A stretch of DNA of 64,000 nt from the NCBI GenBank assembly GCA_035776655.1, contig DASTWK010000017.1, positions 11,940-75,939 on the forward strand, written 5' to 3'. Made by a program: the position numbers and the translations under genes. Shown here in pieces: positions 11,357 to 63,159 of the stretch. The DNA is from Mycobacteriales bacterium (lineage in GTDB: Bacteria; Actinomycetota; Actinomycetes; JAFAQI01). Below the pieces are notes generated by a model that made no database searches, was not told the origin of the DNA, and saw nothing but the letters and a program-made list of their open reading frames with translations. How positions within the stretch are numbered: the stretch's first letter is position 1; each line of letters opens with the position of its first letter.

Positions 11357-11363
11357 CTGCCCC

Positions 11364-45593: not shown

Positions 45594-45622
45594 GGCTGCT
45601 CCTGTGGTCGGTGTGGTCAGGG

Positions 45623-46714
45623 TCAGAGGTCGAGCTGGCAGGCACCGGCGGCGGCGGAGACGCAGGTCTGGACGCGCACGCCGTCACCCGGGACAGCGGT
45701 GGTGAGGTCGCCGGTCCGCAGGTCACGCACGGCGCCCTCTCGCAGCGGGACCACGCAGCCGAAGCAGATGCCCATCCGGCAGCCCGAGGGCATCAGCACG
45801 CCGGCCGCTTCGCCGGCGTCGAGGATCGGGGTGCGGCCGTCGGCTTCCACCGACACTCCGCTCCGGGCAAACGTCACGGTGCCGCCGTCGCCGGCGACGA
45901 CCACCGTCGGACGGAACCGCTCCGTGTGCAGGCGGGCGCCGATGCCGAGCTGCTCCCAGTGGTCGCCGAGTGCGTCGAGCATCGGCGTGGGCCCGCAGGC
46001 CCAGGTCTCGCGGGCGGCCAGGTCGGGCACCAGGGCGTGCAGCTCCTCGACCGTGAGGATGCCCTCGCTGTCGGTGTGTCGCTCGACCAGCCGGATCCGG
46101 CCGCGGCGAGCCAGCTGGCGCAACTCGCCGCCGAAGATGGCATCGGCCGCGGTCGGCGCCGAGTGGACGACGACGACGTCGGGCAGCTCGTCGAGCGCGT
46201 GGCGCAGCATGCCCATCACCGGCGTGATGCCGCTGCCCGCGGTGACGAACAGCACCTGTCGCGGTCGTGGCGTCGGCAGCACGAACTCGCCGGTCGCCTG
46301 GTCGAGTTGGACGATCGTGCCGCTCCGCGCCCGGCGTACCAGATAAGAGCTGACCTTGCCGCCGTCGATCGCCTTGACGGTGATCGTCAGGCAGCCATCG
46401 GGTCGCTCCGGAGACGAGGTGAGGGAATAGGCCCGCCACTGTCGGACGCCGTCGACGTCGACGCCGATGCGCACGTACTGCCCCGGCACGTGCGGGCGCC
46501 AGCCGCGACCGGGCTCGAGGACGAGCGTCACCGCATCGCGGGTCTCCGGATGCGACGCGACGATGCGGGCGCGCAGCTGTGCGGGTGACCGCAGCGGACT
46601 GAGCACGTCGAGGTAGTCCGCCGGCACCAGAGGTGTCGTCACCAGCTCGGCCAGCCGCAGCACCCGCTCGAGCAGCGGTCGAGCGGGTGCAGCCGGCTCG
46701 GCGGTCATCGTCAT
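45623..46714 (-). CDS. Ferredoxin reductase partner of the desaturase (FNR + 2Fe-2S)
   Basis: RAYSLTS, AGSGITP, CGP, GCRMGICFGC, QTC. Confidence 0.92.
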   Translation of the reverse strand: MTMTAEPAAPARPLLERVLRLAELVTTPLVPADYLDVLSPLRSPAQLRARIVASHPETRDAVTLVLEPGRGWRPHVPGQYVRIGVDVDGVRQWRAYSLTSSPERPDGCLTITVKAIDGGKVSSYLVRRARSGTIVQLDQATGEFVLPTPRPRQVLFVTAGSGITPVMGMLRHALDELPDVVVVHSAPTAADAIFGGELRQLARRGRIRLVERHTDSEGILTVEELHALVPDLAARETWACGPTPMLDALGDHWEQLGIGARLHTERFRPTVVVAGDGGTVTFARSGVSVEADGRTPILDAGEAAGVLMPSGCRMGICFGCVVPLREGAVRDLRTGDLTTAVPGDGVRVQTCVSAAAGACQLDL

Positions 46715-46801
46715 GACTCCATGCTGATGCGCCAGGCGAGGTAAAGTCCTGGCCGTGAGGCGTGAAGAATCGTGGCTCCGCTGTTCGGAGCGAACAATCT
46801 G

Positions 46802-48061
46802 ATGCGAAAGCGGTCAGCGGACAGCCCGACCGCTCCCGGTGCGGCCGGGCTGGCGCTGGACCCGGGCATCGCGGCCGGGCTGCGGGGGCGACTGCCCGCC
46901 GTCGCCGAGCTCACCGTGGCGGCCGTGACCGCCGAGGTACCGGGGTACGCCGGGGCGCTCAGCGGCGAGATGGGCGCCAACATCGAGCAGGCGGTGCAGA
47001 TGGCCCTCGGCGGGTTCCTGCGACTGGCCGAGCAGCCGCGCGGCGCGGATGCGAGCACCCCGCTGCAGCCGGCGCGAGAGGCGGCGTATGCCCTCGGCCG
47101 GGGCGAAGCGCGCAGTGGTCGCACGATGGACGCGCTGCTGGCGGCCTATCGGGTGGGGGCGCGGGTCGCGTGGCGCGAGCTGTCGGCCATCGCGGTGGAG
47201 CACGGGCTGCCGGCACCGCGGGTGGCGAAGTTCGCGGAGCTGGTCTTCGCCTACATCGACGAGCTGTCCGCGGCCAGCGTCGCCGGGCATGCTGACGAGC
47301 TGGCCGCCGCCGGTCGGGTGCGCCGGCGCTATCAGGAGCGGCTGGCGCAGAACCTCGTCAGCGGGGCACCGGCAGACGTTGTCATCGCCAGCGCCGAGCG
47401 GGCGGAGTGGCCGGCACCGCGGACGCTCACCGCCCTGCTCGTGCCGTCGGCCGAGGTCGCGCGCGTGCTGTCGCGGCTCGACCCACGGACCCTGGAGCTG
47501 GCGGGGGACCAGGCCGGACTGGAGGCGAGCGAGGACCTCACCGTGCTGCTGGTGCCGGACGCCGACGGAGCGCGCCGGCCAGTGCTGATGCGCACGTTGC
47601 GCGGGCGCCCGGTCGCGGTAGGACCGGCCCGGCCCTGGGCCGAGGTGCGGGCGTCGTACCTGCGCGCGGTGCGCGCGCACCGGCTGTTCGGTCCGCGCGA
47701 CAGCGATCCGGCGTCGGGGACGAGCGTCTCCGTGCGGCCGCTGGACACCGACGAGCTGCTGCCCGAGCTGGTGCTCGGGGCCGACACCGAAGCCCTCGCC
47801 GATCTGCGGGAGCGGGCGCTGGCGCCGCTGGCGGAGCTGCGGCCGGAGGCCGCCGGCCGGTTGGCCGAGACGTTGGCCTCGTGGCTGCTGCACCTCGGGC
47901 GACGGGACGAGGTCGCGGCCGAGCTGCACGTGCACCCACAGACGGTGCGTTACCGGATGACTCAGCTGCGCCAGCTCTATGGCGATCGGCTGAACGAGCC
48001 GCGCACCGTGCTGGAGCTCACCGTCGCGCTGGGTCTCGATCTTCGGCCCGAGATCGGGTGA
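46802..48061 (+). CDS. PucR/CdaR family transcriptional regulator
   Basis: C-terminal HTH AAELHVHPQTVRYR; divergent from the desaturase pair; start 46772 or 46802. Confidence 0.88.
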   Translation: MRKRSADSPTAPGAAGLALDPGIAAGLRGRLPAVAELTVAAVTAEVPGYAGALSGEMGANIEQAVQMALGGFLRLAEQPRGADASTPLQPAREAAYALGRGEARSGRTMDALLAAYRVGARVAWRELSAIAVEHGLPAPRVAKFAELVFAYIDELSAASVAGHADELAAAGRVRRRYQERLAQNLVSGAPADVVIASAERAEWPAPRTLTALLVPSAEVARVLSRLDPRTLELAGDQAGLEASEDLTVLLVPDADGARRPVLMRTLRGRPVAVGPARPWAEVRASYLRAVRAHRLFGPRDSDPASGTSVSVRPLDTDELLPELVLGADTEALADLRERALAPLAELRPEAAGRLAETLASWLLHLGRRDEVAAELHVHPQTVRYRMTQLRQLYGDRLNEPRTVLELTVALGLDLRPEIG

Positions 48062-52400: not shown

Positions 52401-52595
52401 CCGGTCTACGGGCCGGACGGCAAGCGGGTGGCCGGCTGCACTCCGCCGCGGGCCGCTGCCGCGGCGGGGGACATCGGTGGCATCGGGGCGCCGCTGGCGC
52501 CGGCGCTGCCGTTGGGTCTGGCGCTGATGGCCGCGTTCGGTGTGGCAGTGGTCCGCCCGCTGCGGCACCGGGGGCTGCGCCCCGCGCTCGTCTGA
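49464..52595 (+). CDS. Large secreted, C-terminally anchored protein with a metzincin zinc motif
   Basis: Signal peptide, PPC-like beta domain (PGLWRIQV), HESSHFLGLTH (HExxHxxGxxH) at 51915-51947, C-terminal TM followed by a basic tail. Confidence 0.75.
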   Translation: MFSRSRRAAFVSTLAATMAVAVAAPVIACPPVLPGTRDAQRVYGERITHIGVTSPAALVGTTRLTAAPAGTRPRLTTFSGRLTRNPGSNNAAAFQTPADACARPSCIELRVRVPKSAHRQTLYARAAWAATTQYVHIWGVDPSGRVVGKSDVASSFDKRVGNADVAPLAEFTVPNPKPGLWRIQVRAVFGYRIPVRAAVALVAAPALQLPQQNVIQLANHYLTQTLNYNIVFVNRRWSKAEIAAFRASMPTEYRSAVLEKQFDDGCSNPADDQASQSVSQSGGTLVNWGTSYYCGTETGGSGNVPYFEPLHYKIQYRFLQADSTWTNDLFATMRKHTTIDQPFAVLPPVGGRRQTQGQYLEQYDAQDGKAMRGPAHAVTDPSKGDKIDAFAVEDWIFNHRYDAKYRHSFKDVETGALHSGAFITPDPNAYFDPFYTATGKRDLNRMPQGPTTSYTFFAMDTFDGPLATKYFRPNAYHYFDVSKHMVDPDLHEPSGPDFARAWGGRYRFFMHDLGAGPNAYESADTALTQNYGGSASGPFGDPPIWDYDNNPQWQGKLAANTARDARVWLFARFLGAYLYRPVPADVYALADTNWQDCYSNPQCSKEGISYTDLHKIYDESYVKRNLGAALPGATFNSLTGTKGFVAYRHLGCAANRAVAAPDTSLVDSSEQAQSPVLVPDPECVGKKSDPLQQLLEIAKARGDELAGGVNDAAANPAVVRHYVEEHRAQLAPQPAGQFTLTNISVVWPGATTWALPAVVGGIAMGTPNGEGWGNLNNVNDRVKTSQATDCAKSLPIAPGCNGVPPISSGSGFSYTIEHESSHFLGLTHPHDFIVVARATGAGQQPWHYYGTGFSKYADFSMAPTTYAGAFAPYSVLDQDIIQKGHTAEYLRQMQDYLADAYVRDGMAGRVRPSGATQHKVDQAHNWMELGSSLFRCGDYLHAERAMRNASLAAQGVFGPVVAPRQLKPGEKVLFRVDPQPVYGPDGKRVAGCTPPRAAAAAGDIGGIGAPLAPALPLGLALMAAFGVAVVRPLRHRGLRPALV

Positions 52596-52623
52596 GGCGG
52601 CCCGACCGCGGGAGGGTGACGAC

Positions 52624-53397
52624 GTGGCTCGATGGGACCCGGAACAGTACGCCCGGTACGCCGACGAACGGTCCCGCCCGTTCCGCGAGCTCGTCGCCCG
52701 TGTCGGGGCGGCGGAGCCGCGGCACGTCGTCGATCTCGGCTGTGGCTCGGGTGAGCTGACGGCGTCGCTGCTCGACCGGTGGCCGTCGGCGCGCGTGGTC
52801 GGCGTCGACAGCTCAGCGGAGATGGTGGCGGCCGCAGCGACGCACGCGGTCGACGGTCGGCTGTCGTTCGTTCAGGCCGATGCGGCCGCCTGGCGGCCGG
52901 ACCAGCCGGTCGATGTCGTCGTCAGCAACGCGCTGCTCCAATGGGTGCCGGATCATCTCGACCTGCTGACGACGATCGCCGGGTGGCTCGCCCCGCAGGG
53001 GTGGCTCGCGTTCCAGGTGCCGGACAACTTCGACGCGCCGTCGCACACGTTGTTGCGCGACTTGCGCAGCTCGCCCCGGTGGCGGGACCGGCTGGGGGCC
53101 GGCGCCGACCGCGGCGCGGCGGTGGAGCGGCCGGAGCGCTATCTGCGCGCGTTGCAGGCCGCGGGTCTGGAGGTCGACGTCTGGCAGACGACTTACCTGC
53201 ACGTGTTGGTCGGCGAGGACCCGGTGTTGGAGTGGGTGAAGGGGACGGCGCTGCGACCGGTGCTCTCGGTGCTCGACCAGGACGAGCAGCGGCAGTTCCT
53301 CGGCGAGTACGGCGCCCAGCTACGGGCGGCCTATCCCGGGACGGAGAACGGCACCGTCTTCCCGTTCCGCCGCACCTTCGCGGTCGGCCACCTCTAG
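52624..53397 (+). CDS. tam: Trans-aconitate 2-methyltransferase
   Basis: WDPEQY..ERSRPF..L, VDLGCGSG, NALLQWVPDH, AFQVP, WVKGTALRP, FPFRR. Confidence 0.9.
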   Translation: MARWDPEQYARYADERSRPFRELVARVGAAEPRHVVDLGCGSGELTASLLDRWPSARVVGVDSSAEMVAAAATHAVDGRLSFVQADAAAWRPDQPVDVVVSNALLQWVPDHLDLLTTIAGWLAPQGWLAFQVPDNFDAPSHTLLRDLRSSPRWRDRLGAGADRGAAVERPERYLRALQAAGLEVDVWQTTYLHVLVGEDPVLEWVKGTALRPVLSVLDQDEQRQFLGEYGAQLRAAYPGTENGTVFPFRRTFAVGHL

Positions 53398-53451: not shown

Positions 53452-54618
53452 TCAGTGCTTCTTGCGCCAGTGTGAGCGCGCCGGGATCTTGTCGATGTCG
53501 ACCCGGTCGACGTACTTCTCCGCGATGCGCGTGACCTCCTCGAGGAGGCCTTCCTCCAACGTGATCGGGCACAGCCCCAGCTCGATGAGCTGGTCGTTGG
53601 TGACGAGCAGCTCGTTCTCGGCCGCCTCGTTGCGCGGGTTCTCGACATGGTCGATCTCGACGCCGGTCAGCCGGGAGACGAGCTTGGCGAGATCGATGAG
53701 GCGGTGGGTCTCGGTCATCTGGTTGAACACCCGGACCCGGTCGGTGCGGGTCGGCGGGTTCTCGATGGCGAGCTGGATGCAGCGCACAGTGTCCTGGATG
53801 TGAATGAACGCTCGCGTCTGGCCGCCGGTGCCGTGGACCGTCAACGGATAACCGATCGCGGCCTGCATCAGGAAGCGGTTGAGCACGGTGCCGTAGTCAC
53901 CGTCGTAGTCGAACCGGTTGATCAGCCGCTCGTCGGTCGCGGTCTCCGCGGTCTGTGTCCCCCACACGATGCCTTGGTGCAGGTCGGTGACACGCACCTC
54001 GTCGTTCTTGTTGTAGTAGGCGAACAGCAGCTGGTCCTGGGTCTTGGTCATGTGGTAGATCGAGCCCGGGTTGGGCGGATAGAGGATCTCCGACTCGACC
54101 ACGCCGTCGTTGGTGGGGATCTGCACCTGCAGGTATCCCTCGGGGATCTTCACGCCGGCGGTGCCGTAGCCGTAGACACCCATCGTGCCGAGGTGCACGA
54201 CGTGGGTGTCGACCTCGGCCTCGACGATGGCGGCCAGCAGGTTGTTGGTCGCGTTCAGGTTGTTGTTGACGGTGTAGCGCTTGTGCCACGACGACTTCAT
54301 CGAGTACGGCGCGGCGCGCTGCTCGGCGAAGTGCACGACAGCCTCGGGTTGCCACTCCTGCAACAGCGTGAGCAGCCGGTGGTAGTGCACGGCGACGTCG
54401 AACCGGTCGAAACCGATGTCCTTGCCGGACACCTCACGCCAGGTCCGCAGCCGCACGCCCATCGGCTGGATCGGGGTCAGGGAGGACGCCTCGAGCTCGA
54501 TGTCAGCGTTTCGGCGCGCGAAGTTGTCGATGATGCGCACGTCGTGGCCTTGTGCCGACAGATGGAGCGCCGTCGGCCAACCGCAGAACCCGTCGCCCCC
54601 GAGGATCAGAACCTTCAC
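53452..54618 (-). CDS. sqdB: UDP-sulfoquinovose synthase
   Basis: MKVLILGGDGFCGWPTALHLS, HFAEQRAAPYSM, HLGTMGVYG, PGSIYHMTK, FDYDGDYGTVLNRF. Confidence 0.93.
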   Translation of the reverse strand: MKVLILGGDGFCGWPTALHLSAQGHDVRIIDNFARRNADIELEASSLTPIQPMGVRLRTWREVSGKDIGFDRFDVAVHYHRLLTLLQEWQPEAVVHFAEQRAAPYSMKSSWHKRYTVNNNLNATNNLLAAIVEAEVDTHVVHLGTMGVYGYGTAGVKIPEGYLQVQIPTNDGVVESEILYPPNPGSIYHMTKTQDQLLFAYYNKNDEVRVTDLHQGIVWGTQTAETATDERLINRFDYDGDYGTVLNRFLMQAAIGYPLTVHGTGGQTRAFIHIQDTVRCIQLAIENPPTRTDRVRVFNQMTETHRLIDLAKLVSRLTGVEIDHVENPRNEAAENELLVTNDQLIELGLCPITLEEGLLEEVTRIAEKYVDRVDIDKIPARSHWRKKH

Positions 54619-54622
54619 CGGT

Positions 54623-55531
54623 TCACCCTTCGCCGACCTCGCCGGCGGAGCCGGCCTGCGGAGGGAGCGTACCCAGGGCCGAACGCGCCGATTTGTCCGG
54701 CTGGTGCCGTCGCTGCCACAGGGGAGCGGACATCACCGCCAGCACGGTCAGCTCGGCGAGCACGGTCACGAGCCGGGAGGTCACGGCCGCCGCTTGCAGC
54801 TGGGCACGGGGATAGAGGCCGTGGAGCATCCACACATAGACCACCTCGCGGACACCGACTCCGCCGGGAGCGAAGACGACGACGAGCCCGGCCGCCCACG
54901 CGACGCACGCCGCGCCGGCGACGTACAACGGGTAGGTCGGGTGCCGGATTCCGGAGACGGCGACCTGGGTGAGGATCGACGCGAAGCCATAGGCGACGAA
55001 GCCGGCGAAGTAGATGCCCGAGGTCCGGACGACGCCGGTACGGGTGACGCGGGTACGCCGTTCCAGCCAGCGTGAGCCGAGGACAGGAAGGCCCGCCATC
55101 AGCACGAGCGGCAGCCATTGCGGGCTGTGCACGGTCATCCAGAGCGCTGCGGCTCCCAGCGCCGTGGTCAGCACCGTCACGTTCTCCGCGGCCACCGACG
55201 CCGCCTTGTCCCGGATGCGGCCGTGGACGGTGGAGGCACGCGCCACCGGAGCCCAGATCCCGCCGGGCAGGTAGCGCGCGACCTGCGTCTGACACCACGC
55301 TCGCACCGGACCCGCCGACACCCGTTCCGTGATCAGCGTCGACCATCCGGTCGCCAGCGCCACCCACCACGCGAGCGCGGCCGCGTAAGCCGCGAGCAGC
55401 GGTGCCACGCGGATGGCGGCAAGGTCCACCCGCTGGGAGGCGCGGTACCCGATGTAGCCGACCAGGACCAGCGCCAGCGGCAGGTAGACCACCCGCAGGA
55501 CGGCGATGACGCGGGGCAGCCGTTGCTGCAC
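54623..55531 (-). CDS. LPG-synthase TM / flippase-like (UPF0104) membrane protein
   Basis: QVARYLPGGIW and FAPGGVGVREVV motifs, about 8 TM; start approximate. Confidence 0.8.
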   Translation of the reverse strand: MQQRLPRVIAVLRVVYLPLALVLVGYIGYRASQRVDLAAIRVAPLLAAYAAALAWWVALATGWSTLITERVSAGPVRAWCQTQVARYLPGGIWAPVARASTVHGRIRDKAASVAAENVTVLTTALGAAALWMTVHSPQWLPLVLMAGLPVLGSRWLERRTRVTRTGVVRTSGIYFAGFVAYGFASILTQVAVSGIRHPTYPLYVAGAACVAWAAGLVVVFAPGGVGVREVVYVWMLHGLYPRAQLQAAAVTSRLVTVLAELTVLAVMSAPLWQRRHQPDKSARSALGTLPPQAGSAGEVGEG

Positions 55532-55653
55532 GACGGTCAGCCGGGCGCTGCCCGCCTGCCACAGCTGATGCCCGCGGACGAGCAGCACGTGGGCCCGCCC
55601 CGGCGGGTCGAGCCTTCGGTCGGGGTCAGCGGCCTGCTGCCCCGACTCCTCGC

Positions 55654-56472
55654 TCAACGCCCCTGGTGCGCGACGCGCCGTGCGCGCGTCCACTCGCGAA
55701 GCCACGTCTTGAGGATCACACGCGCGTATCTGCCGGCGTACAGAGCGTTGTGGCCCTTCTTGCTCTCGCCGGCGAGCCGCTTGTGCATCGTGATGGCCCG
55801 CTCCGTGACGCGGTAGCCGCGAAAGATCGCGCCGATGAGCAGCTCTGAGGTCTGGTATTGCACCTGCACCTGCGGGACCGACTGGGTCAGCTCGACCCGC
55901 ATCGCCCGGAAGCCGCTCGAGGTGTCGGTGACCCGCGTCCCGGTCAGCAGGCTGACCAGCCGCGCGAAGAAGGTGACGCCGGCATGTCGCACCGCGTCGT
56001 CGGTCTCGGCGGTGCCGAGGACCCGTGAGCCGATGACGAAATCGGCCTGGTCGCGGACCAGTGGCTCGAGCACGACCGGGATCTCCGCCGGATCCCACTG
56101 CAGGTCCGCGTCGAGCGTGACGACGTACTGCGCGCCGAACTCGGCCGCGAGCTGGTAACCCAGCCTCAGCGCGACACCGTGCCCGCAGTTGCGTTCCAGC
56201 CGGGCGAGGTGCACGCCCTCGTGCTGTTGGACGACTTCCGCCGTGCCGTCGGTGCTGCCGTCGTCGATGACGAGCGTGTCGATCTGCAGGCCGCAGGCCG
56301 TCGCCGGGATCGCGTCCAGCACCGCCCCGACGCTGTCACGCTCGTCGAGTGCCGCGATCAGCGCAACCACGGGGGCGAACTTGAGGTCGGTGTTCTCGGC
56401 GCAGAACCGCTCGAGCGCTGCCGCGCGGACCGCCTGGATGTATGGGCGGTCCTTGCGGTTGGTGGAGCTCAC
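55654..56472 (-). CDS. GT2 glycosyltransferase (polyprenyl-phosphate glycosyltransferase / DPM1-like)
   Basis: IAALDE, VIDDGSTDGT, TLDADLQWDP, DTSSGFRAM. Confidence 0.9.
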   Translation of the reverse strand: MSSTNRKDRPYIQAVRAAALERFCAENTDLKFAPVVALIAALDERDSVGAVLDAIPATACGLQIDTLVIDDGSTDGTAEVVQQHEGVHLARLERNCGHGVALRLGYQLAAEFGAQYVVTLDADLQWDPAEIPVVLEPLVRDQADFVIGSRVLGTAETDDAVRHAGVTFFARLVSLLTGTRVTDTSSGFRAMRVELTQSVPQVQVQYQTSELLIGAIFRGYRVTERAITMHKRLAGESKKGHNALYAGRYARVILKTWLREWTRARRVAHQGR

Positions 56473-56490
56473 CCGGTTACCCTACGGTTC

Positions 56491-58062
56491 GTGACCACCG
56501 GGGCTCCGGGCGCAGCGGTCGAGAGCCTCGTAGGCGCCACTGTCGATCCTCCGCGGGAGGCCTCCCGCGCTCGCTGGTTGCCGGCCGCGGTCGCCGGGGT
56601 GCTGGTGGTCAGCATCGCACTGCGGTTCCTCAGCCGGCCGCCGCTGTGGCTGGACGAGGCGCAGACGGTCGAGATCGCGCGACGGTCGTTGCCGCATCTG
56701 GTCGCGGCCTTGCGACACGACGGTGCCCCGCCGCTCTACTACCTGTTGCTGCACGGCTGGATGAGTGTGGCCGGCACCAGCACGTTCGCCATCCGTGCCT
56801 TGTCCGGGATCTTCGCGGTGGCTTCGCTGCCCGTGATGTGGTTCGTGGCCCGACGGTTCCGGCCGCCGGGCAGCGCATCGCCGTGGCCCGCCGTCCTGCT
56901 GCTGGCGACCTGCCCCTTCGCCGTCCGCTACGCCACCGAGGCGCGGATGTACGCCCTGGTGCTGCTGCTCGTCCTGCTCGGCCTGTTCCTCTTCGAACGC
57001 GCGTGGTCGACCGGCAGTCGGTGGGCGATGGCTGCTGCTGCGGTCGTCACCGGTGCGCTCCTTCTCACGCAGTACTGGGCGATGTTCTTGATCGCGGTCG
57101 TGGGGTTGGGTGCGGTCGGTTGCCTGCTGCGAGGAGACCGCCGTGGCTGGCGCGTGGTCGTTCCGCTGGCCGTCGGCTGCCTCGCCTTCGTCCCGTGGTT
57201 GCCGACGTTCGCCTACCAGAGCGCCCACACCGGAGCGCCGTGGGGCGCACCGCCGGGCCTCGAGACCCCGCTCCTGACTCTGCGCGACTGGTCCGGTGGG
57301 TGGCTGTCCGGCCCGTTGCTCGGCGTGGCCTACTACCTGCTGATCGCCGTCGCCCTGGCCGGACACCCGACGTTCGACGGCAGCGGCATCACGTTCCGCC
57401 GGCCGTTGCGGCGCCCCGCGCTGCTGCTGATCGGGCTCGCGGTCGCGACGCTGTACGTCGGGGTCGTGGCCAGCGTCGTCGCCTCCAGCGCCTACGCGTC
57501 GCGCTACAGCACGATCGTTCTCGCGCCGGCGCTGCTCGTGGTCGCCTTCGGCCTGGCGGTGCTCCCGGGCCGGGCCCGCACGGTTGCGCTGTGCGTCGTC
57601 TGCGCCCTGGGCCTGGCCGGGTCTGCCTGGTTGCCGGCGAAGCTGCGCACTCAGGCGGGACAGGTCGCGGCCCTGCTGCAGGCTGCCGGGCCGCACGACC
57701 TCGTCGTGTTCTGCCCGGACCAGCTCGGTCCGGCCGTGCACCGGCTGGCGCCGGATGCCGGGACGCAGGTCGTCTACCCGACGTTCGGCTCGGCGGCGAT
57801 GGTCGACTGGGTGGACTACGAGAAACGCAACAAGAGCGCCGACCCGATCGCGTTCGCGCGGCAGGCGCTGCAGCGTGCGTCCGGTCGGCCGATCTGGCTC
57901 GTCTATCGCACCGGCTACCCGACGCTGGCAGGTGCGTGCACGTCTCTCGTCACCTCGTTCACGGTCGCGCGCGGACGTCCGGAGGACGAGCTCGCTCCCC
58001 ACGGCGCCTTCGAGAAGTACACGGTCGCGCGCTTTCCGGCGGCCGCGCCGCCTGCTGGTTGA
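56491..58062 (+). CDS. GT-C membrane glycosyltransferase (PMT_2/GT39-like)
   Basis: LWLDE, DGAPPLYY, ATEARMY; multi-TM with an extracellular C-terminal domain; GTG 56491. Confidence 0.82.
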   Translation: MTTGAPGAAVESLVGATVDPPREASRARWLPAAVAGVLVVSIALRFLSRPPLWLDEAQTVEIARRSLPHLVAALRHDGAPPLYYLLLHGWMSVAGTSTFAIRALSGIFAVASLPVMWFVARRFRPPGSASPWPAVLLLATCPFAVRYATEARMYALVLLLVLLGLFLFERAWSTGSRWAMAAAAVVTGALLLTQYWAMFLIAVVGLGAVGCLLRGDRRGWRVVVPLAVGCLAFVPWLPTFAYQSAHTGAPWGAPPGLETPLLTLRDWSGGWLSGPLLGVAYYLLIAVALAGHPTFDGSGITFRRPLRRPALLLIGLAVATLYVGVVASVVASSAYASRYSTIVLAPALLVVAFGLAVLPGRARTVALCVVCALGLAGSAWLPAKLRTQAGQVAALLQAAGPHDLVVFCPDQLGPAVHRLAPDAGTQVVYPTFGSAAMVDWVDYEKRNKSADPIAFARQALQRASGRPIWLVYRTGYPTLAGACTSLVTSFTVARGRPEDELAPHGAFEKYTVARFPAAAPPAG

Positions 58063-59519
58063 GCAGGGCAGGTCGAGAGCACGGTCCAGCGGGCCCCCGG
58101 CGTCCCGACCGACCCCCGCAGTCGGTACGCCGCGGCGACCGCGGCCGGCAGTCGAGGTGCTCCGCCCTCCTGGAACACCGTGCCGCGCGGCGCGGCGACG
58201 ATGCCGACGTTCTCCAGATGGTCATGCAGCTCCCACGCGACCAGCGGCACCTGGAATGGCTGCGTCGTCACATGGCCGCACTGCCGGATCTCGTCGCGCC
58301 CTCCGGCGAGGGTGATGGCTGGCCCGAGCGTCGACTGCAGCCGGGCGAAGTCGCGGCCGATGCTGATGCCTGCGCGCACCTGTCGCTGCGTCGTGTGCAG
58401 CCGCGGCGCGACGAGCGCGACCAGCGCCACCGCCGTCACGGCGCTGACGACGACCGGGAGGGACGGTGACGGCCGCCGACGTACCACTGCCCGCACCAGA
58501 TCGGCGACGAAGACCCCGACCGCCACCACCGCGAGCCCCACGCCCGGGAGCAGATAGCGGGGAGCCCCGGTTGCGAAGCGGCCCTGGGCCAGCACCGCGT
58601 CGATGACCAACCAGCCGAAGGCGCCGGCACACAGCCATGCGGAGGGGGTGAGCCGGCGGCCGCGGAGTGAGGTGACGATCGCCCAGGCGGAGGCGGCCAG
58701 GAAGAGCACCAGCACCGGCCCCGACATCAGATGCCAGGTCTCCCGCACGGTTGCGATCCCGGGGTTCCGGGTCAGCAACGGCCCACCTTGGCTCGTGTGC
58801 TGAGCGGCCCCCGCCGAACGCGACAGCTGATGGGCTCCGAACAGGTCGATGACGAACCACGACGCGGGCACGATCACGGCAAGCGCCAGTGCCGACGAAC
58901 GGCGCCACAGCGGGCCGGATCGCGCCGACCAGACGCAGTAACCGAACAGGAACGGCCACGCCTCCGGGCGGAGCAGCCCGGCGACGACGAGCCAGCCCAG
59001 CGCGGCTCGACGGCGACGCGAGAGCAGGCTGTCCACCGCGGCGAGCACACCGGCGGCGGCGAACGGTTCGGACATGCCGCGCATGAACAGGTAGCCCAGG
59101 TATTCATCGGAGATCGCGAGGGCGATGACGGCGATCACTCCCGCTCCGATGCCGGCGAGCCGACGCGCGACGCGGAAGGCCAGCACCAGTGACAGCAGCG
59201 TTGCCGCCCGAGCGACGAGCAGCCACAGCACGGGTGCCGCGGCGGATCCCGTCAGCGCGAAGATCGTGTCCAAAGCGATCGGGAGCGGCTTGACCGCGGT
59301 GGCCGCGGCGCGGGTGTCGAGGTCGAGATGAAGGATCTCCCGCCCCCAGATCAGCCAGGACCACGGGTCATAGGCGACGCTGCGGGGGAGGAGCACCAGC
59401 GACACTCCGGCGAGCACCAGACACACGGCGACGACGCCCGCGAGCCCTCGACGGCGTGGACCGCCGGCGAGCTCCGGCTGCGGCCCGCTGTGGCTGGTCT
59501 CTGCCGCCGGCTCGACCAC
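57915..59519 (-). CDS. Multi-TM membrane protein, probable GT-C glycosyltransferase
   Basis: YDPWSWLIWGRE, AVKPLP, MSEP, LLRPEAW; start approximate. Confidence 0.65.
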   Translation of the reverse strand: MVEPAAETSHSGPQPELAGGPRRRGLAGVVAVCLVLAGVSLVLLPRSVAYDPWSWLIWGREILHLDLDTRAAATAVKPLPIALDTIFALTGSAAAPVLWLLVARAATLLSLVLAFRVARRLAGIGAGVIAVIALAISDEYLGYLFMRGMSEPFAAAGVLAAVDSLLSRRRRAALGWLVVAGLLRPEAWPFLFGYCVWSARSGPLWRRSSALALAVIVPASWFVIDLFGAHQLSRSAGAAQHTSQGGPLLTRNPGIATVRETWHLMSGPVLVLFLAASAWAIVTSLRGRRLTPSAWLCAGAFGWLVIDAVLAQGRFATGAPRYLLPGVGLAVVAVGVFVADLVRAVVRRRPSPSLPVVVSAVTAVALVALVAPRLHTTQRQVRAGISIGRDFARLQSTLGPAITLAGGRDEIRQCGHVTTQPFQVPLVAWELHDHLENVGIVAAPRGTVFQEGGAPRLPAAVAAAYRLRGSVGTPGARWTVLSTCPAQPAGGAAAGKRATVYFSKAPWGASSSSGRPRATVNEVTRDVHAPASVG

Positions 59520-59649
59520 GTGCGGAGGGCGGATCAACGGGCGCTCACCACGGAACCTTACGATGGCCGTTACCCGCCCAATCCGGACACGCTCGCCGGG
59601 GCGGCGTTCGAACACGTGCCCTCGAGACCGCACGAACCGAAGGAGACCG

Positions 59650-61173
59650 GTGTCCTGGTCAGGCAACCCGCACGTGGTCGTCATCGGTGCCGGTCCGGCC
59701 GGGCTGACCGCCGCCTACACGCTCACGAAGGCCGGCGAGCCGGTCACGGTCGTCGAAGCCGACGACGTCGTCGGCGGCATCAGCCGCACGGTGGAGCGCG
59801 ACGGGTGGCGGTTCGACATCGGTGGGCACCGGTTCTTCACGAAGGTGCCCGTCGTCGAAGACCTCTGGCACGAGATCCTGCCGGACGCCGATTTCCTCGT
59901 GCGGCCGCGGATGAGCCGGATCTACTACGACAACAAGCTCTTCGACTACCCGCTGCGGGCCGCGAACGCCTTGCGCAACCTCGGCGTCCTCGAAGCGATC
60001 CGCTGCGTGGCGTCGTACCTGTGGGTGCGCATCCGCCCGCCGAAGAACCAGCAGACCCTCGAGGGCTGGGTGGCGGCCCGGTTCGGCTGGCGGCTCTACC
60101 GGACCTTCTTCAAGACCTACAACGAGAAGGTCTGGGGCGTTCCCGCCAGTGAGATCGCGGCCGACTGGGCTGCGCAGCGCATCAAGAACCTGTCCCTGTT
60201 CGGCGCGGTGATCAACTCGATCCTGCCCAAGCGGAACCAGACGGACATCACCAGCTTGATCGAGGAGTTCCAGTACCCCAAGCTCGGTCCCGGGATGATG
60301 TGGGAGCGCTGCCGCGATCTCGTCGCCGCCGGTGGGGGAGACGTCGTGATGGGTTCGCCCGTCACGGCGATCCGGCGCAGCACGGCCGGCGCGATCGCGG
60401 TCGTGGCCGCGCGCGGCGGGGTCCAGGTCTCCATCCCGACCAGCGCGGTGATCAGCTCGATGCCGCTGCCGGAGCTCGTGCTCGCCATGGACCCGCCCGC
60501 ACCGGCCGAGGTGCAGATGGCGGCTCGACGGCTGTCGCACCGCGACTTCCTCACCGTCGCTCTGGTGGTGCCGGAGTCCGCCAGCTTCCCGGACAACTGG
60601 ATCTACATCCACGCACCGGACGTGAAGGTGGGCCGCATCCAGAACTTCGGGTCGTGGTCGCCGTACCTCGTCAAGGACGGACGCACGTGCCTCGGGCTCG
60701 AGTACTTCGTGTTCGAAGGTGACGATCTCTGGGCGGCGCCGGACGAGGAGCTGATCGAGCTGGCGAAGCGCGAGCTCGTCGCGTTGGGCCTGGTCGGCGA
60801 GGGCCAGTGCGAGGCTGGTTACGTCGTCCGCATGCCGAAGGCCTATCCGGTGTACGACCACGGCTACCAGGACGCGGTGGAGGTCATCCGTCGCTGGCTG
60901 TCCGACGCGGTCCCCAACGTCTATCCGGTGGGACGCAACGGCATGCACAAGTACAACAACCAGGACCACTCGATGCTGACCGCGTTGCTGTCGGTCGACA
61001 ACCTCCTGAACGACGCCGGTCACGACGTCTGGTCCGTGAACGTCGAATCCGACTACCACGAGGAAGCATCGCTGTCGCAACCGCGCGGTGACGGGGGCAG
61101 CAGCGGCGGCACCGGCCGGGACGCGCCCGTGCTCCCTACCCGTGCGGTGCTGGCAGAAGAGGGCGCGAGCTGA
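59650..61173 (+). CDS. FAD-dependent oxidoreductase (HemY/UGM-like, of the type found in glycan loci)
   Basis: IGAGPAGL, FDIGGHRFFTK, PKAYPVY, GRNGMHKYNNQDHSM; RBS aggag before GTG 59650. Confidence 0.85.
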   Translation: MSWSGNPHVVVIGAGPAGLTAAYTLTKAGEPVTVVEADDVVGGISRTVERDGWRFDIGGHRFFTKVPVVEDLWHEILPDADFLVRPRMSRIYYDNKLFDYPLRAANALRNLGVLEAIRCVASYLWVRIRPPKNQQTLEGWVAARFGWRLYRTFFKTYNEKVWGVPASEIAADWAAQRIKNLSLFGAVINSILPKRNQTDITSLIEEFQYPKLGPGMMWERCRDLVAAGGGDVVMGSPVTAIRRSTAGAIAVVAARGGVQVSIPTSAVISSMPLPELVLAMDPPAPAEVQMAARRLSHRDFLTVALVVPESASFPDNWIYIHAPDVKVGRIQNFGSWSPYLVKDGRTCLGLEYFVFEGDDLWAAPDEELIELAKRELVALGLVGEGQCEAGYVVRMPKAYPVYDHGYQDAVEVIRRWLSDAVPNVYPVGRNGMHKYNNQDHSMLTALLSVDNLLNDAGHDVWSVNVESDYHEEASLSQPRGDGGSSGGTGRDAPVLPTRAVLAEEGAS

Positions 61174-62515
61174 CCGAAGCGGCGAGGACCGGTCGCTCGG
61201 CGCTGGCAACGGCGACGGCGAGCAGGCCCAGCGGCAGTGTGTAGTGGTTGAAGAACGTCTGCTTGTTCGCCAGGTCGAACGCCCACAGAACGATCGCGCA
61301 GGCGAGGGCGAGGCCCGACGGCGTACGCGGCACCCGCCACAACACCAGGCCATAGGCGCCCGCCAGGAACGCCGCCGCGAGCCAGAATCCGACGTGCAGG
61401 TCGTAGCGAAGCAGCAGGCTCGGCAGGTTCAGTGCGCGCGGCTCGAGCTGCAACGCCAGGTTGGCATGCACCGCGTCGTGCCACAGGTCGCCAGGGCCGG
61501 CGGCGAACCACGGCAGCACGACCGCGGCCGCGGCGGCGAGTGAGACGGCGGTACGGCGCAGGCCGAACGACGGCCAGATCGCGAACACCGGCAGCAGCAG
61601 GACGATGTGTTGCTTGCACGCCAACGCCACGGCCAGCGCGATGACGGCGACGGCCGGTCGCTCGTCGAGCAACGCGAGGACGACGATCGCCAGTGCGGCC
61701 AGGAGGAGCGGTTCCGTCCAGGACCGGTTGATCAGCAGGACCCATCCAGGCAACCCGAGGAGCAGCGCGGACACCGCTGGTGCGGCCCGATGCTCCATCC
61801 GCCGGACGACCACCGCGGCCAGGACCGCGGCAGTGAGCAGTCCGAACCGGACGTCTCCGACCAGCCAACGAAACGGCGCGAGCAGCAAGGTCGAGCCCGG
61901 CAGATAGGGGTAGACGGCCTGCAAGCCGGTGCTGCCGGACCAGTGCTGCCGATACATGTCGTCCCCGTGCAGCAGCCCGCTGCTGGACTGCTGCAGTAGG
62001 TCCCACACGTCGATGCCGGGATCCCTGATCAGCACGACCGTGACCACACCGGTGGCGATCGCCAGTGCGACGAGCGACAGCCAGCAAGCCCGCTGCCACC
62101 GATGCGGTGCCAGCAACGAGGCGGCGGCCGCGACCGCAGTCGCGACACCGAGCGCCGAGACGATGTGCAGGTCCGTGCCGTGCAGGTAGAGGAACGGGTG
62201 CGTCGGGTTCACCACCGCCTCGACCACGACCAGCACCGCCGGCGCTGCGAGCAACGCGCGGTCGGGACGGGCAAGAGGTCGGCCGAGTGCCACTGCGGCG
62301 ACCAGAACCACGAAGCCCGCGAGCAGACAGCTGACAGCCGCCGACGAGTAGTAGCCGGCATGGGACGCATCAGCAATGGCGAGCAGGCACCACGCGAGCA
62401 GCACGCCGCCCGAGCTCAGCTTGCCGCCGACTGTCGGCGCCCCGGACCGGCGTGCGGCGAAGTTGGCGGTTCGTCGCCCCAGTCCCGACATCAAGGGATC
62501 GGCGTCCGTGCTCAC
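61136..62515 (-). CDS. GT-C membrane glycosyltransferase (GT87/DUF2029-like)
   Basis: IDVW, VYPYLP, SWTEP, ACKQH, NKQTFFNHY; multi-TM. Confidence 0.72.
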   Translation of the reverse strand: MSTDADPLMSGLGRRTANFAARRSGAPTVGGKLSSGGVLLAWCLLAIADASHAGYYSSAAVSCLLAGFVVLVAAVALGRPLARPDRALLAAPAVLVVVEAVVNPTHPFLYLHGTDLHIVSALGVATAVAAAASLLAPHRWQRACWLSLVALAIATGVVTVVLIRDPGIDVWDLLQQSSSGLLHGDDMYRQHWSGSTGLQAVYPYLPGSTLLLAPFRWLVGDVRFGLLTAAVLAAVVVRRMEHRAAPAVSALLLGLPGWVLLINRSWTEPLLLAALAIVVLALLDERPAVAVIALAVALACKQHIVLLLPVFAIWPSFGLRRTAVSLAAAAAVVLPWFAAGPGDLWHDAVHANLALQLEPRALNLPSLLLRYDLHVGFWLAAAFLAGAYGLVLWRVPRTPSGLALACAIVLWAFDLANKQTFFNHYTLPLGLLAVAVASAERPVLAASVSSRPLLPAPHG

Positions 62516-62639
62516 GCTTCCTGGTCGAGCCCGGCGTCACGGGTGCGGGCGTGACTGGCGCCGGGCTGCTCCACGGGCTCGACGCTACTGGGTGGCGCGC
62601 CGAGACTGCTGGCAGCAGATGGTCGGCTGCCGAGCAGAC

Positions 62640-62669
62640 TTGCAAATCAACTTATAACTTTGCTACTCT
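62640..62669 (+). promoter_or_regulatory. Housekeeping-sigma promoter TTGCAA-N18-TACTCT for hsp20
   Basis: AT-rich patch in a GC-rich window; GCAAA/TTTGC inverted repeat spans the spacer. Confidence 0.6.
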
Positions 62670-62730
62670 TCAGGCACTAGGTAGTTCGCCGATCGCTGGC
62701 CGGTCGGCGTCAGCGCACAGGAGGTGCTGC

Positions 62731-63159
62731 ATGTTGCTCGAGAGGGTCGACCCGTTCCTGGCCGAATTCGATCGGCTGACCCAGCGCGCCTTCGGCGGCG
62801 TGGACGGCATCGGCATGCCGATGGACGTCATCCGTCGCGCCGACGAACTGGTCGTCACCGTGGACCTGCCGGGCGTCGCGAGCGACAAGATGAGCTTGAC
62901 CGTGGAGAATCACGTGCTCACGATCGCCGCAGAACGCCGTGGTGGCTACGGCGACGGCGACCAGCTGCTCGCGCAGGAGCGATTCGACGGGACCATCAGC
63001 CGCCGGCTGCGCGTGCCGGACTGGGTCGATGCCGAGGCTGTCACCGCCGATTACGTCGACGGCGTGCTGACCGTGCATCTCCCGCTCGCGGAGAAGGCGA
63101 AGCCGCGCCGGATCGAGGTCAGCGTCGGCAAGGCGCAGCAGGCCCAGATCGAGAGCTGA
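62731..63159 (+). CDS. Hsp20/alpha-crystallin small heat-shock protein
   Basis: MDVIR..DLPGV, ERFDGTISRRL, ADYVDGVLTV, KPRRI; RBS AGGAGG. Confidence 0.93.
   Translation: MLLERVDPFLAEFDRLTQRAFGGVDGIGMPMDVIRRADELVVTVDLPGVASDKMSLTVENHVLTIAAERRGGYGDGDQLLAQERFDGTISRRLRVPDWVDAEAVTADYVDGVLTVHLPLAEKAKPRRIEVSVGKAQQAQIES

What the first reader, a model, noticed from the sequence alone, without database searches (positions are those of the whole stretch)
53452..62515. sqdB embedded in a polyprenyl/GT-C glycosylation locus rather than a sulfolipid operon
Seen: sqdB lies in a same-strand run with a DPM1-like GT2 and a UPF0104 flippase-like gene, next to three GT-C-type membrane proteins and an FAD oxidoreductase; no SqdX/SqdD-like sulfolipid synthase gene is adjacent. 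Knowledge: SqdB normally feeds SQDG synthesis, while in Sulfolobales the homolog Agl3 supplies sulfoquinovose for protein N-glycans. Inference: this actinobacterium may load sulfoquinovose on a polyprenyl phosphate, flip it and transfer it to cell-wall glycans or proteins, giving a sulfonated surface glycoconjugate.
Basis: partly seen in the sequence, partly recalled or inferred. Interest (0 to 1): 0.65.

Follow-up and report, generated by a model that had tools for sequence, protein, structure and literature searches.

The report
Lipid-carrier sulfoquinovose envelope glycosylation cluster
An uncultured soil actinobacterium keeps the gene for the sulfur sugar sulfoquinovose beside enzymes that load a sugar onto a membrane lipid carrier, flip it outward and attach it outside the cell, and it has no sulfolipid synthase gene, which predicts a bacterial use of this sugar that I could not find described.

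Summary
Seven real genes fill 53452-62515:
- A, an authentic sqdB;
- B, a UPF0104 membrane protein with the fold of the MprF flippase domain;
- C, a soluble GT2 related to DPMS, ArnC, GtrB and PpgS;
- D, E and G, three GT-C membrane transferases;
- F, a flavoenzyme that is UDP-galactopyranose-mutase-like rather than a generic oxidoreductase.

Gene presence across 36 genomes of the family splits the locus in two. sqdB, the GT2, UPF0104 and GT-Cs D and E are gained and lost together: the GT2 is in 13 of 13 sqdB+ genomes against 0 of 23 sqdB- genomes (one weak 37% hit aside). F and G also occur in genomes without sqdB, so they form a separate module.

No SqdX- or SqdD-type sulfolipid synthase tracks sqdB. 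The link between sqdB and the GT2 recurs in other actinobacterial families, in Rhodanobacter and in soil metagenomes. The flippase slot is filled by UPF0104 or GtrA, and in some lineages the GT-C is fused to the GT2.

The best reading (about 0.65) is UDP-sulfoquinovose, then polyprenyl-phosphate-sulfoquinovose, then flipping, then transfer by a GT-C to an unknown envelope acceptor. This is a new variant of the three-component glycosylation systems. It rests on computation only. Earlier agents of this scan reached the same reading in other genomes.

The parts
53452..54618 (-). A: sqdB, UDP-sulfoquinovose synthase (388 aa)
   Evidence: It matches SQD1 (PDB 1qrr) over its full length at E 4.6e-91, with T145, Y188, H189 and K192 aligned to SQD1 T145/Y182/H183/K186. 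It is 70-78% identical to SqdB of many bacteria, including cyanobacterial and Trueperaceae copies that lie next to SqdX. The NCBIfam model NF041015 scores 342 bits, below its 575 cut-off.
54623..55657 (-). B: UPF0104 / PplT (MprF flippase-domain) membrane protein. Predicted flippase for the lipid-linked sugar and/or membrane partner of the GT2. The start is uncertain (55657 TTG or 55588 GTG).
   Evidence: Pfam PF03706 gives only 16 bits (E 0.0085, below cut-off), but homologues at 60-68% identity carry PF03706 and one is named YbhN/UPF0104. The AlphaFold model (pLDDT 87.7) matches only MprF in the PDB (9j8q, 7duw; prob 1.0, TM 0.49-0.53). The gene is in 11 of 13 sqdB+ genomes and 0 of 23 sqdB- genomes of the family.
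55654..56472 (-). C: soluble GT2 of the polyprenyl-phosphate glycosyltransferase type (272 aa). Predicted polyprenyl-phosphate sulfoquinovose synthase.
   Evidence: Pfam Glycos_transf_2, E 4.7e-22. The best NCBIfam hits are dolichyl-P hexose transferase, AglJ, PpgS and ArnC, all below their cut-offs. The best PDB hits are DPMS 5mlz (3e-11), ArnC and GtrB, with the DAD motif at 121-123 aligned. It has no TM helix. This GT2 type is in 13 of 13 sqdB+ genomes and in none of the 23 sqdB- genomes apart from one weak 37% hit.
56491..58062 (+). D: GT-C glycosyltransferase of the PMT_2 family (about 10 TM helices plus a C-terminal domain). Candidate sulfoquinovosyltransferase. The start is uncertain.
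   Evidence: Pfam PMT_2, 33.4 bits against a cut-off of 26.1. D55-E56 are invariant in the first loop. Orthologues at 54% identity or more are found only in sqdB+ genomes (12 of 13). A 41-44% paralogue sits next to F in six sqdB- genomes.
57915..59537 (-). E: GT-C-fold membrane protein of a family with no Pfam model. Second candidate sulfoquinovosyltransferase. The start is uncertain (up to 59684).
   Evidence: The AlphaFold model has pLDDT 88.5 and pTM 0.86. Its Foldseek PDB top 31 hits are all GT-C enzymes: ArnT 5ezm at 2.6e-6, then ALG12, AglB, STT3, AftA and PglB. Y56-D57 are invariant in the first loop. The gene is in 9 of 13 sqdB+ and 0 of 23 sqdB- genomes. E-like genes lie divergent from C-B-sqdB in distant metagenome loci.
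59650..61173 (+). F: flavoenzyme like UDP-galactopyranose mutase (PRK07208 family). It belongs to an adjacent, separate module.
   Evidence: NCBIfam NF005548 at 793 bits (named 'hypothetical protein'). PDB hits are eukaryote-type UGMs: 3ute at 1e-22, and 4dsg at 3e-19 over residues 6-458. The gene is in 22 of 36 family genomes, 10 of which lack sqdB.
61136..62515 (-). G: GT87-like (PimE-type) GT-C membrane protein. It travels with F, not with sqdB.
   Evidence: The window protein has no Pfam hit, but homologues at 52-68% identity carry PF09594. It has about 11 TM helices. It lies next to F in the sqdB-lacking relatives G008, G011, G018 and G042.

Best explanation
The locus holds a three-component extracytoplasmic glycosylation system whose sugar is sulfoquinovose.

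The predicted steps are:
1. SqdB makes UDP-sulfoquinovose from UDP-glucose and sulfite. This is inferred from orthology.
2. The soluble GT2 (C) transfers the sugar to polyprenyl monophosphate at the inner face of the membrane. It is docked to, or helped by, the UPF0104 protein B, whose gene is translationally coupled to it. The enzyme class is shown; the donor sugar is inferred from co-inheritance.
3. B, which has the fold of the MprF flippase domain, moves polyprenyl-P-sulfoquinovose to the outer face. This step is inferred.
4. GT-Cs D and/or E transfer sulfoquinovose to an envelope acceptor, which could be a wall glycan, a lipoglycan, a teichoic-acid-like polymer or a protein. Their fold and co-inheritance are shown; the activity and the acceptor are unknown.

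The result would be a permanently anionic, phosphate-free sulfonate decoration of the cell surface. The neighbouring UGM-like F and GT87-like G form a separate glycosylation module.
For: Identity of the parts:
- SqdB.
- The GT2 is nearest to DPMS, ArnC, GtrB and PpgS and has the DXD motif.
- B has the MprF flippase fold.
- D is PMT_2 with a DE motif.
- E has the GT-C fold.

Synteny:
- All seven genes are conserved in G001, G005, G016, G023, G048, G050 and L089.
- In G013, sqdB sits on a different contig from the B-C-D-E-F cluster.
- In G012 and G020, sqdB, C and B are at one locus and D is at another.

Gene presence over 36 family genomes:
- sqdB in 13 genomes, the C-type GT2 in the same 13, B in 11 of them, D (54% identity or more) in 12, E in 9.
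- None of these is in the 23 sqdB- genomes, apart from one weak 37% hit for C.
- Within genus g5, only the sqdB+ genome G048 has B, C, D and E, while sqdB- members keep F and G.

Beyond the family:
- In 401 genomes sampled evenly from the class, 20 have a C-type GT2. Of the 10 outside the family, 7 have an SqdB homologue within 5 kb; the other 3 lie on short contigs or at a contig end.
- Of 80 metagenome loci with a B homologue, 49 have sqdB on the contig, and 7 of the 8 with at least 4 kb on both sides do. C lies upstream in 39 of 46.
- Other architectures have the same logic. Prauserella and Saccharomonospora have a membrane-domain::GT2 open frame, GtrA and sqdB. L196 has a PMT::GT2 fusion, GtrA and an SqdB-like gene. 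L023 has PMT, GT2 and sqdB. Rhodanobacter has sqdB, UPF0104, GT2 and large membrane proteins.
- One locus adds a PAPS reductase, which makes the sulfite that SqdB needs, next to sqdB.

No sulfolipid synthase:
- SqdX-like hits do not track sqdB (positive controls).
- GT8 is in 2 of 13 sqdB+ genomes and 7 of 23 sqdB- genomes.
Against: - Nothing is biochemical. No lipid-linked sulfoquinovose has been reported in the literature I could search.
- The GT2 passes no curated equivalog cut-off, so its donor and acceptor are inferred.
- In the studied cases (gpgSDF, hexSDF) UPF0104 proteins are predicted to flip finished glycolipids, not donors.
- In genus g13 the sqdB/GT2/UPF0104 trio stands without an adjacent GT-C.
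- D has a 41-44% paralogue next to F in sqdB-lacking genomes, so its link to sulfoquinovose rests on the presence pattern.
- The window's genome is a 69.5%-complete MAG.
Confidence: 0.65

Rival explanations
1. The GT2 and the UPF0104 protein make and flip a finished sulfoquinovose-bearing membrane lipid. It could be a sulfoquinovosyl glycerolipid or phospholipid, or polyprenyl-P-sulfoquinovose itself as the end product. The GT-Cs nearby would belong to other pathways.
For: UPF0104 proteins are the predicted flippases of the glycolipid operons gpgSDF and hexSDF and form the flippase domain of MprF. In genus g13, and in many metagenome contigs, only sqdB, GT2 and UPF0104 are linked. GT-C G and flavoenzyme F are clearly independent of sqdB.
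Against: The closest relatives of the GT2 all use polyprenyl or dolichyl phosphate as acceptor. GT-Cs D and E follow the presence pattern of sqdB, including in g13 where D is unlinked. GT-C::GT2 fusions and GtrA partners occur next to sqdB in other lineages. E-like GT-Cs sit divergent from C-B-sqdB in distant metagenome loci.
Confidence: 0.17
2. The organism makes the classical sulfolipid SQDG as a phosphate-sparing membrane lipid, using a sulfolipid synthase encoded elsewhere or of an unrecognised type. The adjacency to the GT2 and GT-C genes would be incidental.
For: SqdB here is 70-78% identical to SqdB of SQDG producers. The window's genome is incomplete. Prauserella, Saccharomonospora and Rhodanobacter each hold a full-length GT4 33-36% identical to SqdX.
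Against: No SqdX orthologue occurs in sqdB+ relatives that are 92-96% complete. The 35%-identical GT4 occurs equally in sqdB- genomes. GT8 does not track sqdB. The GT2 tracks sqdB 13 of 13 against 0 of 23, and the link recurs across families and phyla.
Confidence: 0.06
3. The lipid-carrier route is right but the sugar is not sulfoquinovose as such. UDP-sulfoquinovose could be modified first, for example epimerised to a 6-sulfo-hexose isomer, or the GT2 could use a different nucleotide sugar.
For: Several related loci carry an extra SDR epimerase/dehydratase next to sqdB or the GT2 (L028, L201, L016). Some C-type GT2 genes sit beside a divergent SqdB-like clade of 44-48% identity. The GT2's donor cannot be read from its sequence.
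Against: In the window and its family no second nucleotide-sugar enzyme is linked to the core trio. The only enzyme that co-varies with the GT2 is SqdB itself.
Confidence: 0.1

Closest known systems
Three-component transmembrane glycosylation systems: GtrA/GtrB/Gtr* (O-antigen glucosylation), CsbB/GtcA/YfhO (lipoteichoic acid), GacI/GacJ/GacK/GacL (group A carbohydrate), ArnC/ArnE-F/ArnT
   Same: They share the overall logic. A DPMS-like GT2 charges polyprenyl phosphate from a nucleotide sugar, a membrane protein flips the product, and a GT-C enzyme transfers the sugar outside the membrane. The genes are clustered and inherited together (PMC11127046, PMC8035078).
   Different: The linked nucleotide-sugar gene is sqdB, so the predicted sugar is a sulfonated hexose. 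The flippase slot is filled by a UPF0104/MprF-type protein instead of a GtrA, SMR, MATE or Wzx protein. The GT2 has no TM helices. Two GT-Cs (D and E) co-vary with the system. The acceptor is unknown.
PpgS (Rv3631) / Rv3632 / Rv3779: galactosamine decoration of mycobacterial arabinogalactan
   Same: It is an actinobacterial system with a soluble PpgS-type GT2 (an NCBIfam PpgS hit at E 3.5e-15, below cut-off), a membrane partner encoded beside it, and a GT-C that decorates a wall polymer with a charged sugar. The description of the system is from my own knowledge.
   Different: The sugar is different (cationic GalN against anionic sulfoquinovose). The partner is a small GtrA-like protein in mycobacteria and UPF0104 here. 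The GT-Cs are not orthologous.
Agl3 of Sulfolobus acidocaldarius (UDP-sulfoquinovose for the protein N-glycan)
   Same: It is the only established case where UDP-sulfoquinovose feeds a glycoconjugate other than SQDG (PMC4388408).
   Different: It is archaeal. To my knowledge the sugar is added to a dolichyl-pyrophosphate-linked oligosaccharide and transferred en bloc by AglB. No monophosphate carrier plus GT-C single-sugar route is known there.
sqdB-sqdX (cyanobacteria) and sqdB-sqdD-sqdC (Rhodobacter) sulfolipid operons
   Same: They share the first enzyme; SqdB here is 70-73% identical to cyanobacterial SqdB.
   Different: There is no SqdX/SQD2-type GT4 or SqdD-type GT8 that tracks sqdB. The partner is a polyprenyl-phosphate-type GT2.
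gpgSDF (Pseudomonas aeruginosa GlcN-phosphatidylglycerol) and hexSDF (Clostridioides difficile)
   Same: A glycosyltransferase gene is followed by a UPF0104 gene predicted to flip the lipid product (PMC12713373).
   Different: There the transferase is a GT4 acting on a glycerolipid and the flipped lipid is the end product. No GT-C is involved.

Membership tests
UDP-sulfoquinovose synthase (SqdB/SQD1/Agl3) | Extended SDR about 390 aa long with an N-terminal GxxGxxG motif and full-length similarity to SQD1 | tested here: met
   The motif is GGDGFCG. Pfam Epimerase, E 3.6e-22. SQD1 (1qrr) matches at E 4.6e-91 over residues 2-386.
UDP-sulfoquinovose synthase (SqdB/SQD1/Agl3) | Catalytic Thr/Tyr/Lys plus the family-specific His next to Tyr (SQD1 T145, Y182, H183, K186) | tested here: met
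   T145, Y188, H189 and K192 align to them in the printed alignment.
UDP-sulfoquinovose synthase (SqdB/SQD1/Agl3) | Score above the curated NCBIfam equivalog cut-off (NF041015, 575 bits) | tested here: not met
   The score is 342 bits. Against this, the protein is 70-78% identical to SqdB genes that sit next to SqdX in cyanobacteria and Trueperaceae. I read the shortfall as a narrow model rather than a different enzyme.
UDP-sulfoquinovose synthase (SqdB/SQD1/Agl3) | Converts UDP-glucose plus sulfite to UDP-sulfoquinovose | not testable with these tools
   This needs an enzyme assay.
Polyprenyl-phosphate glycosyltransferases of GT2 (DPMS, GtrB, ArnC, PpgS, GacI) | GT-A GT2 domain with a DXD motif, whose nearest characterised relatives use polyprenyl or dolichyl phosphate as acceptor | tested here: met
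   Pfam GT2. PDB hits are DPMS 5mlz at 3e-11, ArnC at 3e-9 and GtrB at 9e-7, with the DAD motif aligned. NCBIfam hits are dolichyl-P hexose transferase, AglJ, PpgS and ArnC.
Polyprenyl-phosphate glycosyltransferases of GT2 (DPMS, GtrB, ArnC, PpgS, GacI) | Passes a curated equivalog cut-off of a named member | tested here: not met
   All hits are far below their cut-offs, for example 88 bits against 375. This is a distinct subfamily.
Polyprenyl-phosphate glycosyltransferases of GT2 (DPMS, GtrB, ArnC, PpgS, GacI) | Membrane attachment through its own TM helices or a dedicated membrane partner | tested here: inconclusive
   C has no TM segment. The B gene overlaps the stop of C and always follows C. 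In other lineages the GT2 carries N-terminal TM helices or is fused to a GT-C. Physical interaction was not tested.
Three-component (GT2 / flippase / GT-C) extracytoplasmic glycosylation system | All three component types are encoded together and inherited together | tested here: met
   Synteny is shown.
Three-component (GT2 / flippase / GT-C) extracytoplasmic glycosylation system | GT-C fold with a conserved acidic residue in the first extracytoplasmic loop | tested here: met
   D matches PMT_2 and has invariant D55-E56. E matches ArnT, ALG12, AglB and others by Foldseek and has invariant Y56-D57.
Three-component (GT2 / flippase / GT-C) extracytoplasmic glycosylation system | Flippase of a family used in known systems (GtrA, SMR, MATE, Wzx) | tested here: not met
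   B is UPF0104 with the MprF flippase-domain fold. GtrA-family proteins fill this slot next to sqdB in Prauserella and L196.
Three-component (GT2 / flippase / GT-C) extracytoplasmic glycosylation system | A polyprenyl-P-sugar intermediate and a glycosylated extracytoplasmic acceptor | not testable with these tools
   This needs lipidomics and glycan analysis.
SQDG sulfolipid pathway | An SqdX/SQD2-type GT4 or an SqdD-type GT8 sulfoquinovosyltransferase present with sqdB | tested here: not met
   tblastn of the genome found none. The family-wide SqdX search shows no hit that tracks sqdB, with positive controls. PF01501 is in 2 of 13 sqdB+ and 7 of 23 sqdB- genomes.
UPF0104 / PplT (MprF flippase domain, PF03706) | Pfam match above the gathering score | tested here: not met
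   The window protein scores 16 bits against 33.4. Homologues at 60-68% identity have PF03706 on record.
UPF0104 / PplT (MprF flippase domain, PF03706) | Fold of the MprF flippase domain | tested here: met
   The model (pLDDT 87.7) matches MprF 9j8q and 7duw with prob 1.0 and TM 0.49-0.53. All other hits have prob 0.16 or less.
UDP-galactopyranose mutase (for F) | Full-length similarity to solved UGMs | tested here: inconclusive
   Hits to eukaryote-type UGMs are at E 1e-22 to 3e-19, and one covers residues 6-458. The bacterial UGM model TIGR00031 scores only 30 bits against 304. The substrate is unknown.

The most novel reading that the evidence does not exclude
Polyprenyl-phosphate-sulfoquinovose is a real, undescribed lipid intermediate. 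D-type PMT_2 proteins and the Pfam-less E family are dedicated extracytoplasmic sulfoquinovosyltransferases, with E founding a new GT-C family. Many non-phototrophic soil Actinomycetota, and some Gammaproteobacteria, would use them to build a phosphate-free, permanently anionic sulfonate decoration on wall glycopolymers or surface proteins. That would also be an unrecognised terrestrial source of sulfoquinovose.
Probability: 0.4. Interest if true: 0.8.

Novelty: new variant of a known kind. Interest (0 to 1): 0.6.

Why it matters
Sulfoquinovose is treated almost entirely as the head group of the photosynthetic sulfolipid SQDG. The one known exception is the archaeal N-glycan of Sulfolobus.

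A lipid-carrier route that puts sulfoquinovose on bacterial envelopes would matter in four ways:
1. It would add a new sugar, and a new flippase family, to the three-component glycosylation paradigm.
2. It would give non-phototrophic soil bacteria an anionic surface polymer that needs no phosphate.
3. It would name candidate sulfoquinovosyltransferases of the GT-C class.
4. It would add heterotrophic producers to the sulfoquinovose part of the sulfur cycle.

The idea can be tested directly, because cultured carriers exist: Prauserella rugosa NRRL B-2295, Saccharomonospora sp. CUA-673 and Rhodanobacter ginsengisoli KACC 11762.

Tried and rejected
- The raw ORF list was misleading in this high-G+C DNA. 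The (-) ORFs 59659-61353 and 61053-62099 and the (+) ORF 56442-58469 are not coding by codon-position G+C.
- Profile searches of D, E and G against PDB sequences found nothing. hhalign between the shallow D, E and G alignments showed no relationship. The fold of E had to come from structure prediction.
- An apparent B-SqdB fusion in G016 came from my own ORF-extension script; a stop codon separates the two genes.
- I considered that the GT2 might be the housekeeping polyprenol-phosphate-mannose synthase Ppm1, because in L023 it lies near an Lnt gene. I rejected this because C-type GT2 genes are absent from the 23 sqdB-lacking family genomes.
- I considered F as a modifier of UDP-sulfoquinovose. 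I rejected this as its main role because F occurs in 10 genomes without sqdB.
- The SAM methyltransferase at 52540-53397, convergent with sqdB, is not conserved in the relatives' loci. A methyltransferase does lie beside sqdB in Rhodanobacter.
- Literature searches for lipid-linked or wall-bound bacterial sulfoquinovose found nothing.

Full report
**Gene calls**

The window is G000:C17:11940-75939. It comes from a 2.37-Mb metagenome-assembled genome that is 69.5% complete. NCBI names of close homologues label the relatives as 'Mycobacteriales bacterium' or 'Frankiaceae bacterium' MAGs. The DNA is 66-76% G+C, so I called genes by codon-position G+C and not by ORF length. Seven genes fill 53452-62515:

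| Gene | Coordinates | Strand |
|---|---|---|
| A | 53452-54618 | - |
| B | 54623-55657 | - |
| C | 55654-56472 | - |
| D | 56491-58062 | + |
| E | 57915-~59537 | - |
| F | 59650-61173 | + |
| G | 61136-62515 | - |

The TTG start of B overlaps the stop of C. D is divergent from C.

**What each gene is**

- **A** is an authentic SqdB. It aligns over its full length with Arabidopsis SQD1 (1qrr, E 4.6e-91). The catalytic Thr, Tyr and Lys, and the family-specific His next to the Tyr, are all conserved. It is 70-78% identical to SqdB in hundreds of bacterial genomes, including cyanobacterial and Trueperaceae copies that sit next to an SqdX-type GT4. The NCBIfam equivalog model is missed (342 bits against 575). 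I read that as a narrow model.
- **C** is a 272-aa GT2 with no TM helix. Its nearest solved relatives are all polyprenyl- or dolichyl-phosphate glycosyltransferases: Pyrococcus DPMS, ArnC and GtrB, with the DAD motif aligned. Its NCBIfam hits are dolichyl-P hexose transferase, AglJ, PpgS and ArnC, all below their cut-offs.
- **B** only brushes Pfam PF03706. Homologues at 60-68% identity carry that domain. Its AlphaFold model (pLDDT 87.7) matches only the MprF flippase domain in the PDB.
- **D** is a PMT_2 GT-C with an invariant Asp-Glu in the first loop.
- **E** has no Pfam match. Its model (pLDDT 88.5) hits only GT-C enzymes in the top 31 PDB matches, led by ArnT.
- **G** is GT87-like, judged from its homologues.
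- **F** resembles eukaryote-type UDP-galactopyranose mutases.

**Are the seven genes one system?**

All seven genes are syntenic in six relatives and in one metagenome contig. Rearrangements are informative:
- In G013, sqdB lies on a different contig from the B-C-D-E-F cluster.
- In genus g13, sqdB is divergent from C-B at one locus, with unrelated genes around it, while D and F lie elsewhere.

Gene presence over the 36 genomes of the family:

| Gene | sqdB+ genomes (13) | sqdB- genomes (23) |
|---|---|---|
| C-type GT2 | 13 | 0 (one weak 37% hit) |
| B | 11 | 0 |
| D, 54% identity or more | 12 | 0 (a 41-44% paralogue in 6) |
| E | 9 | 0 |
| F | 12 | 10 |

G was not profiled across all 36 genomes, but it accompanies F in four sqdB-lacking genomes. 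Within genus g5, only the sqdB+ genome G048 has B, C, D and E, while sqdB- members keep F and G.

The locus is therefore two modules. One is a sulfoquinovose module (A, B, C, D, E). The other is a separate F+G module that probably handles a different sugar.

**Is there a sulfolipid synthase?**

A cyanobacterial SqdX used as query finds only generic GT4 hits in the family. The three best hits (35% identity) are in two sqdB- genomes and one sqdB+ genome. The same query recovers the true SqdX of a Trueperaceae genome at 50% identity. GT8, the SqdD type, is in 2 of 13 sqdB+ genomes and 7 of 23 sqdB- genomes. The SQDG reading has no support here.

**Beyond the family**

- Among the 80 best sqdB loci in GTDB genomes, most lack the GT2 and have other partners, including SqdX-like GT4s. 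Nine carry a C-like GT2 within 10 kb.
- In 401 genomes sampled evenly from the class, 20 hold a C-type GT2. Of the ten outside the family, seven have an SqdB homologue within 5 kb. The other three lie on short contigs or at a contig end.
- Of 80 soil-metagenome loci with a B homologue (38-73% identity), 49 have sqdB on the same contig, which is often short. Seven of the eight with at least 4 kb on both sides have it. The C-type GT2 lies upstream in 39 of 46.

The architecture varies but the logic does not:
- Prauserella and Saccharomonospora have an 8-TM::GT2 open frame, a GtrA protein and sqdB.
- L196 has a PMT domain and the GT2 in one uninterrupted frame, plus GtrA and an SqdB-like gene.
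- L023 has PMT, GT2 and sqdB.
- L195 has DUF2142 and GT2, with sqdB nearby.
- Rhodanobacter has sqdB, UPF0104, a TM-anchored GT2 and large membrane proteins.
- One locus adds PAPS reductase, the source of SqdB's sulfite, and DUF6077.
- E-like GT-Cs take the divergent position beside C-B-sqdB in the more distant metagenome loci.

**Mechanism**

The best-supported model is a three-component glycosylation system. SqdB makes UDP-sulfoquinovose. The GT2, together with UPF0104, makes polyprenyl-P-sulfoquinovose. UPF0104 flips it. D and/or E transfer the sugar to an envelope acceptor.

What is shown: the protein classes, their co-inheritance, and the absence of sulfolipid synthases. What is inferred: the donor sugar of the GT2, the flipping, and the activity and acceptor of the GT-Cs.

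The main rival is that GT2 plus UPF0104 make and flip a finished sulfoquinovose lipid, as proposed for the UPF0104 genes of gpgSDF and hexSDF (PMC12713373). The behaviour of D and E and the GT-C::GT2 fusions argue against it but do not exclude it.

**Novelty**

I found no paper that describes lipid-linked or wall-bound bacterial sulfoquinovose, and a 2026 review does not mention one. The closest known systems are GtrA/B/C, CsbB/GtcA/YfhO, GacI-L, ArnC/T and PpgS/Rv3632/Rv3779 (PMC11127046, PMC8035078), with Agl3 for the sugar (PMC4388408).

Earlier agents of this scan reached the same reading in other genomes. Those are AI notes and not independent evidence. What this window adds is the clean within-family gain and loss pattern, the separation of the F+G module, and the structural assignments of B and E.

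Noticed in passing
57915-58062: The 3' ends of the convergent genes D and E overlap by 148 bp. The last 40 or so residues of E are not conserved in orthologues and have pLDDT below 50. In relatives the two genes do not overlap. E probably lost its original stop codon here.
   Followed up: partly
59650-62515; L094-L096, L098: The UGM-like flavoenzyme F and the GT87-like G, often with a 41-44% paralogue of D, form a conserved module in relatives that lack sqdB. This may be a lipid-linked furanose pathway. Its sugar and target are unknown.
   Followed up: partly
L196:8496-10781; L028:6288-8735; L030:6354-8846: A PMT-like multi-TM domain and the C-type GT2 lie in one uninterrupted reading frame, beside a GtrA gene and sqdB or an SqdB-like gene. 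These are apparent GT-C::GT2 fusion proteins.
   Followed up: partly
L196:11520-12653; L199:7465-8604; L200:8671-9810: A divergent SqdB-like clade, 44-48% identical to the window's SqdB, also sits next to C-type GT2 genes. It may make the same sugar or a related sulfo-sugar.
   Followed up: no
52540-53397: A class I SAM methyltransferase is convergent with sqdB. A methyltransferase also lies beside sqdB in Rhodanobacter (L016:11079-11930) and in the GT2/UPF0104/E-like locus L100. It is not conserved in the family's loci.
   Followed up: partly
JGI metagenome contig of P0119 (no DNA held): This contig carries GT2, GT2, a B homologue, sqdB and PAPS reductase in a row, with DUF6077 and two sulfotransferase genes nearby. 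It looks like a sulfur-rich envelope locus. DUF6077 also precedes sqdB in L005.
   Followed up: no
L004, L009, L011, L012 (about 11140-12258 in each): In Solirubrobacterales-type MAGs that have the closest sqdB genes, a 372-aa GT4 unlike SqdX follows sqdB directly. It could be an alternative sulfoquinovosyltransferase.
   Followed up: no
44364-46714: A fatty-acid desaturase and a ferredoxin-reductase-type partner (FAD_binding_6/NAD_binding_1/Fer2) lie next to a PucR-type regulator at 46772-48061. An Hsp20 gene is at 62452-63159.
   Followed up: no
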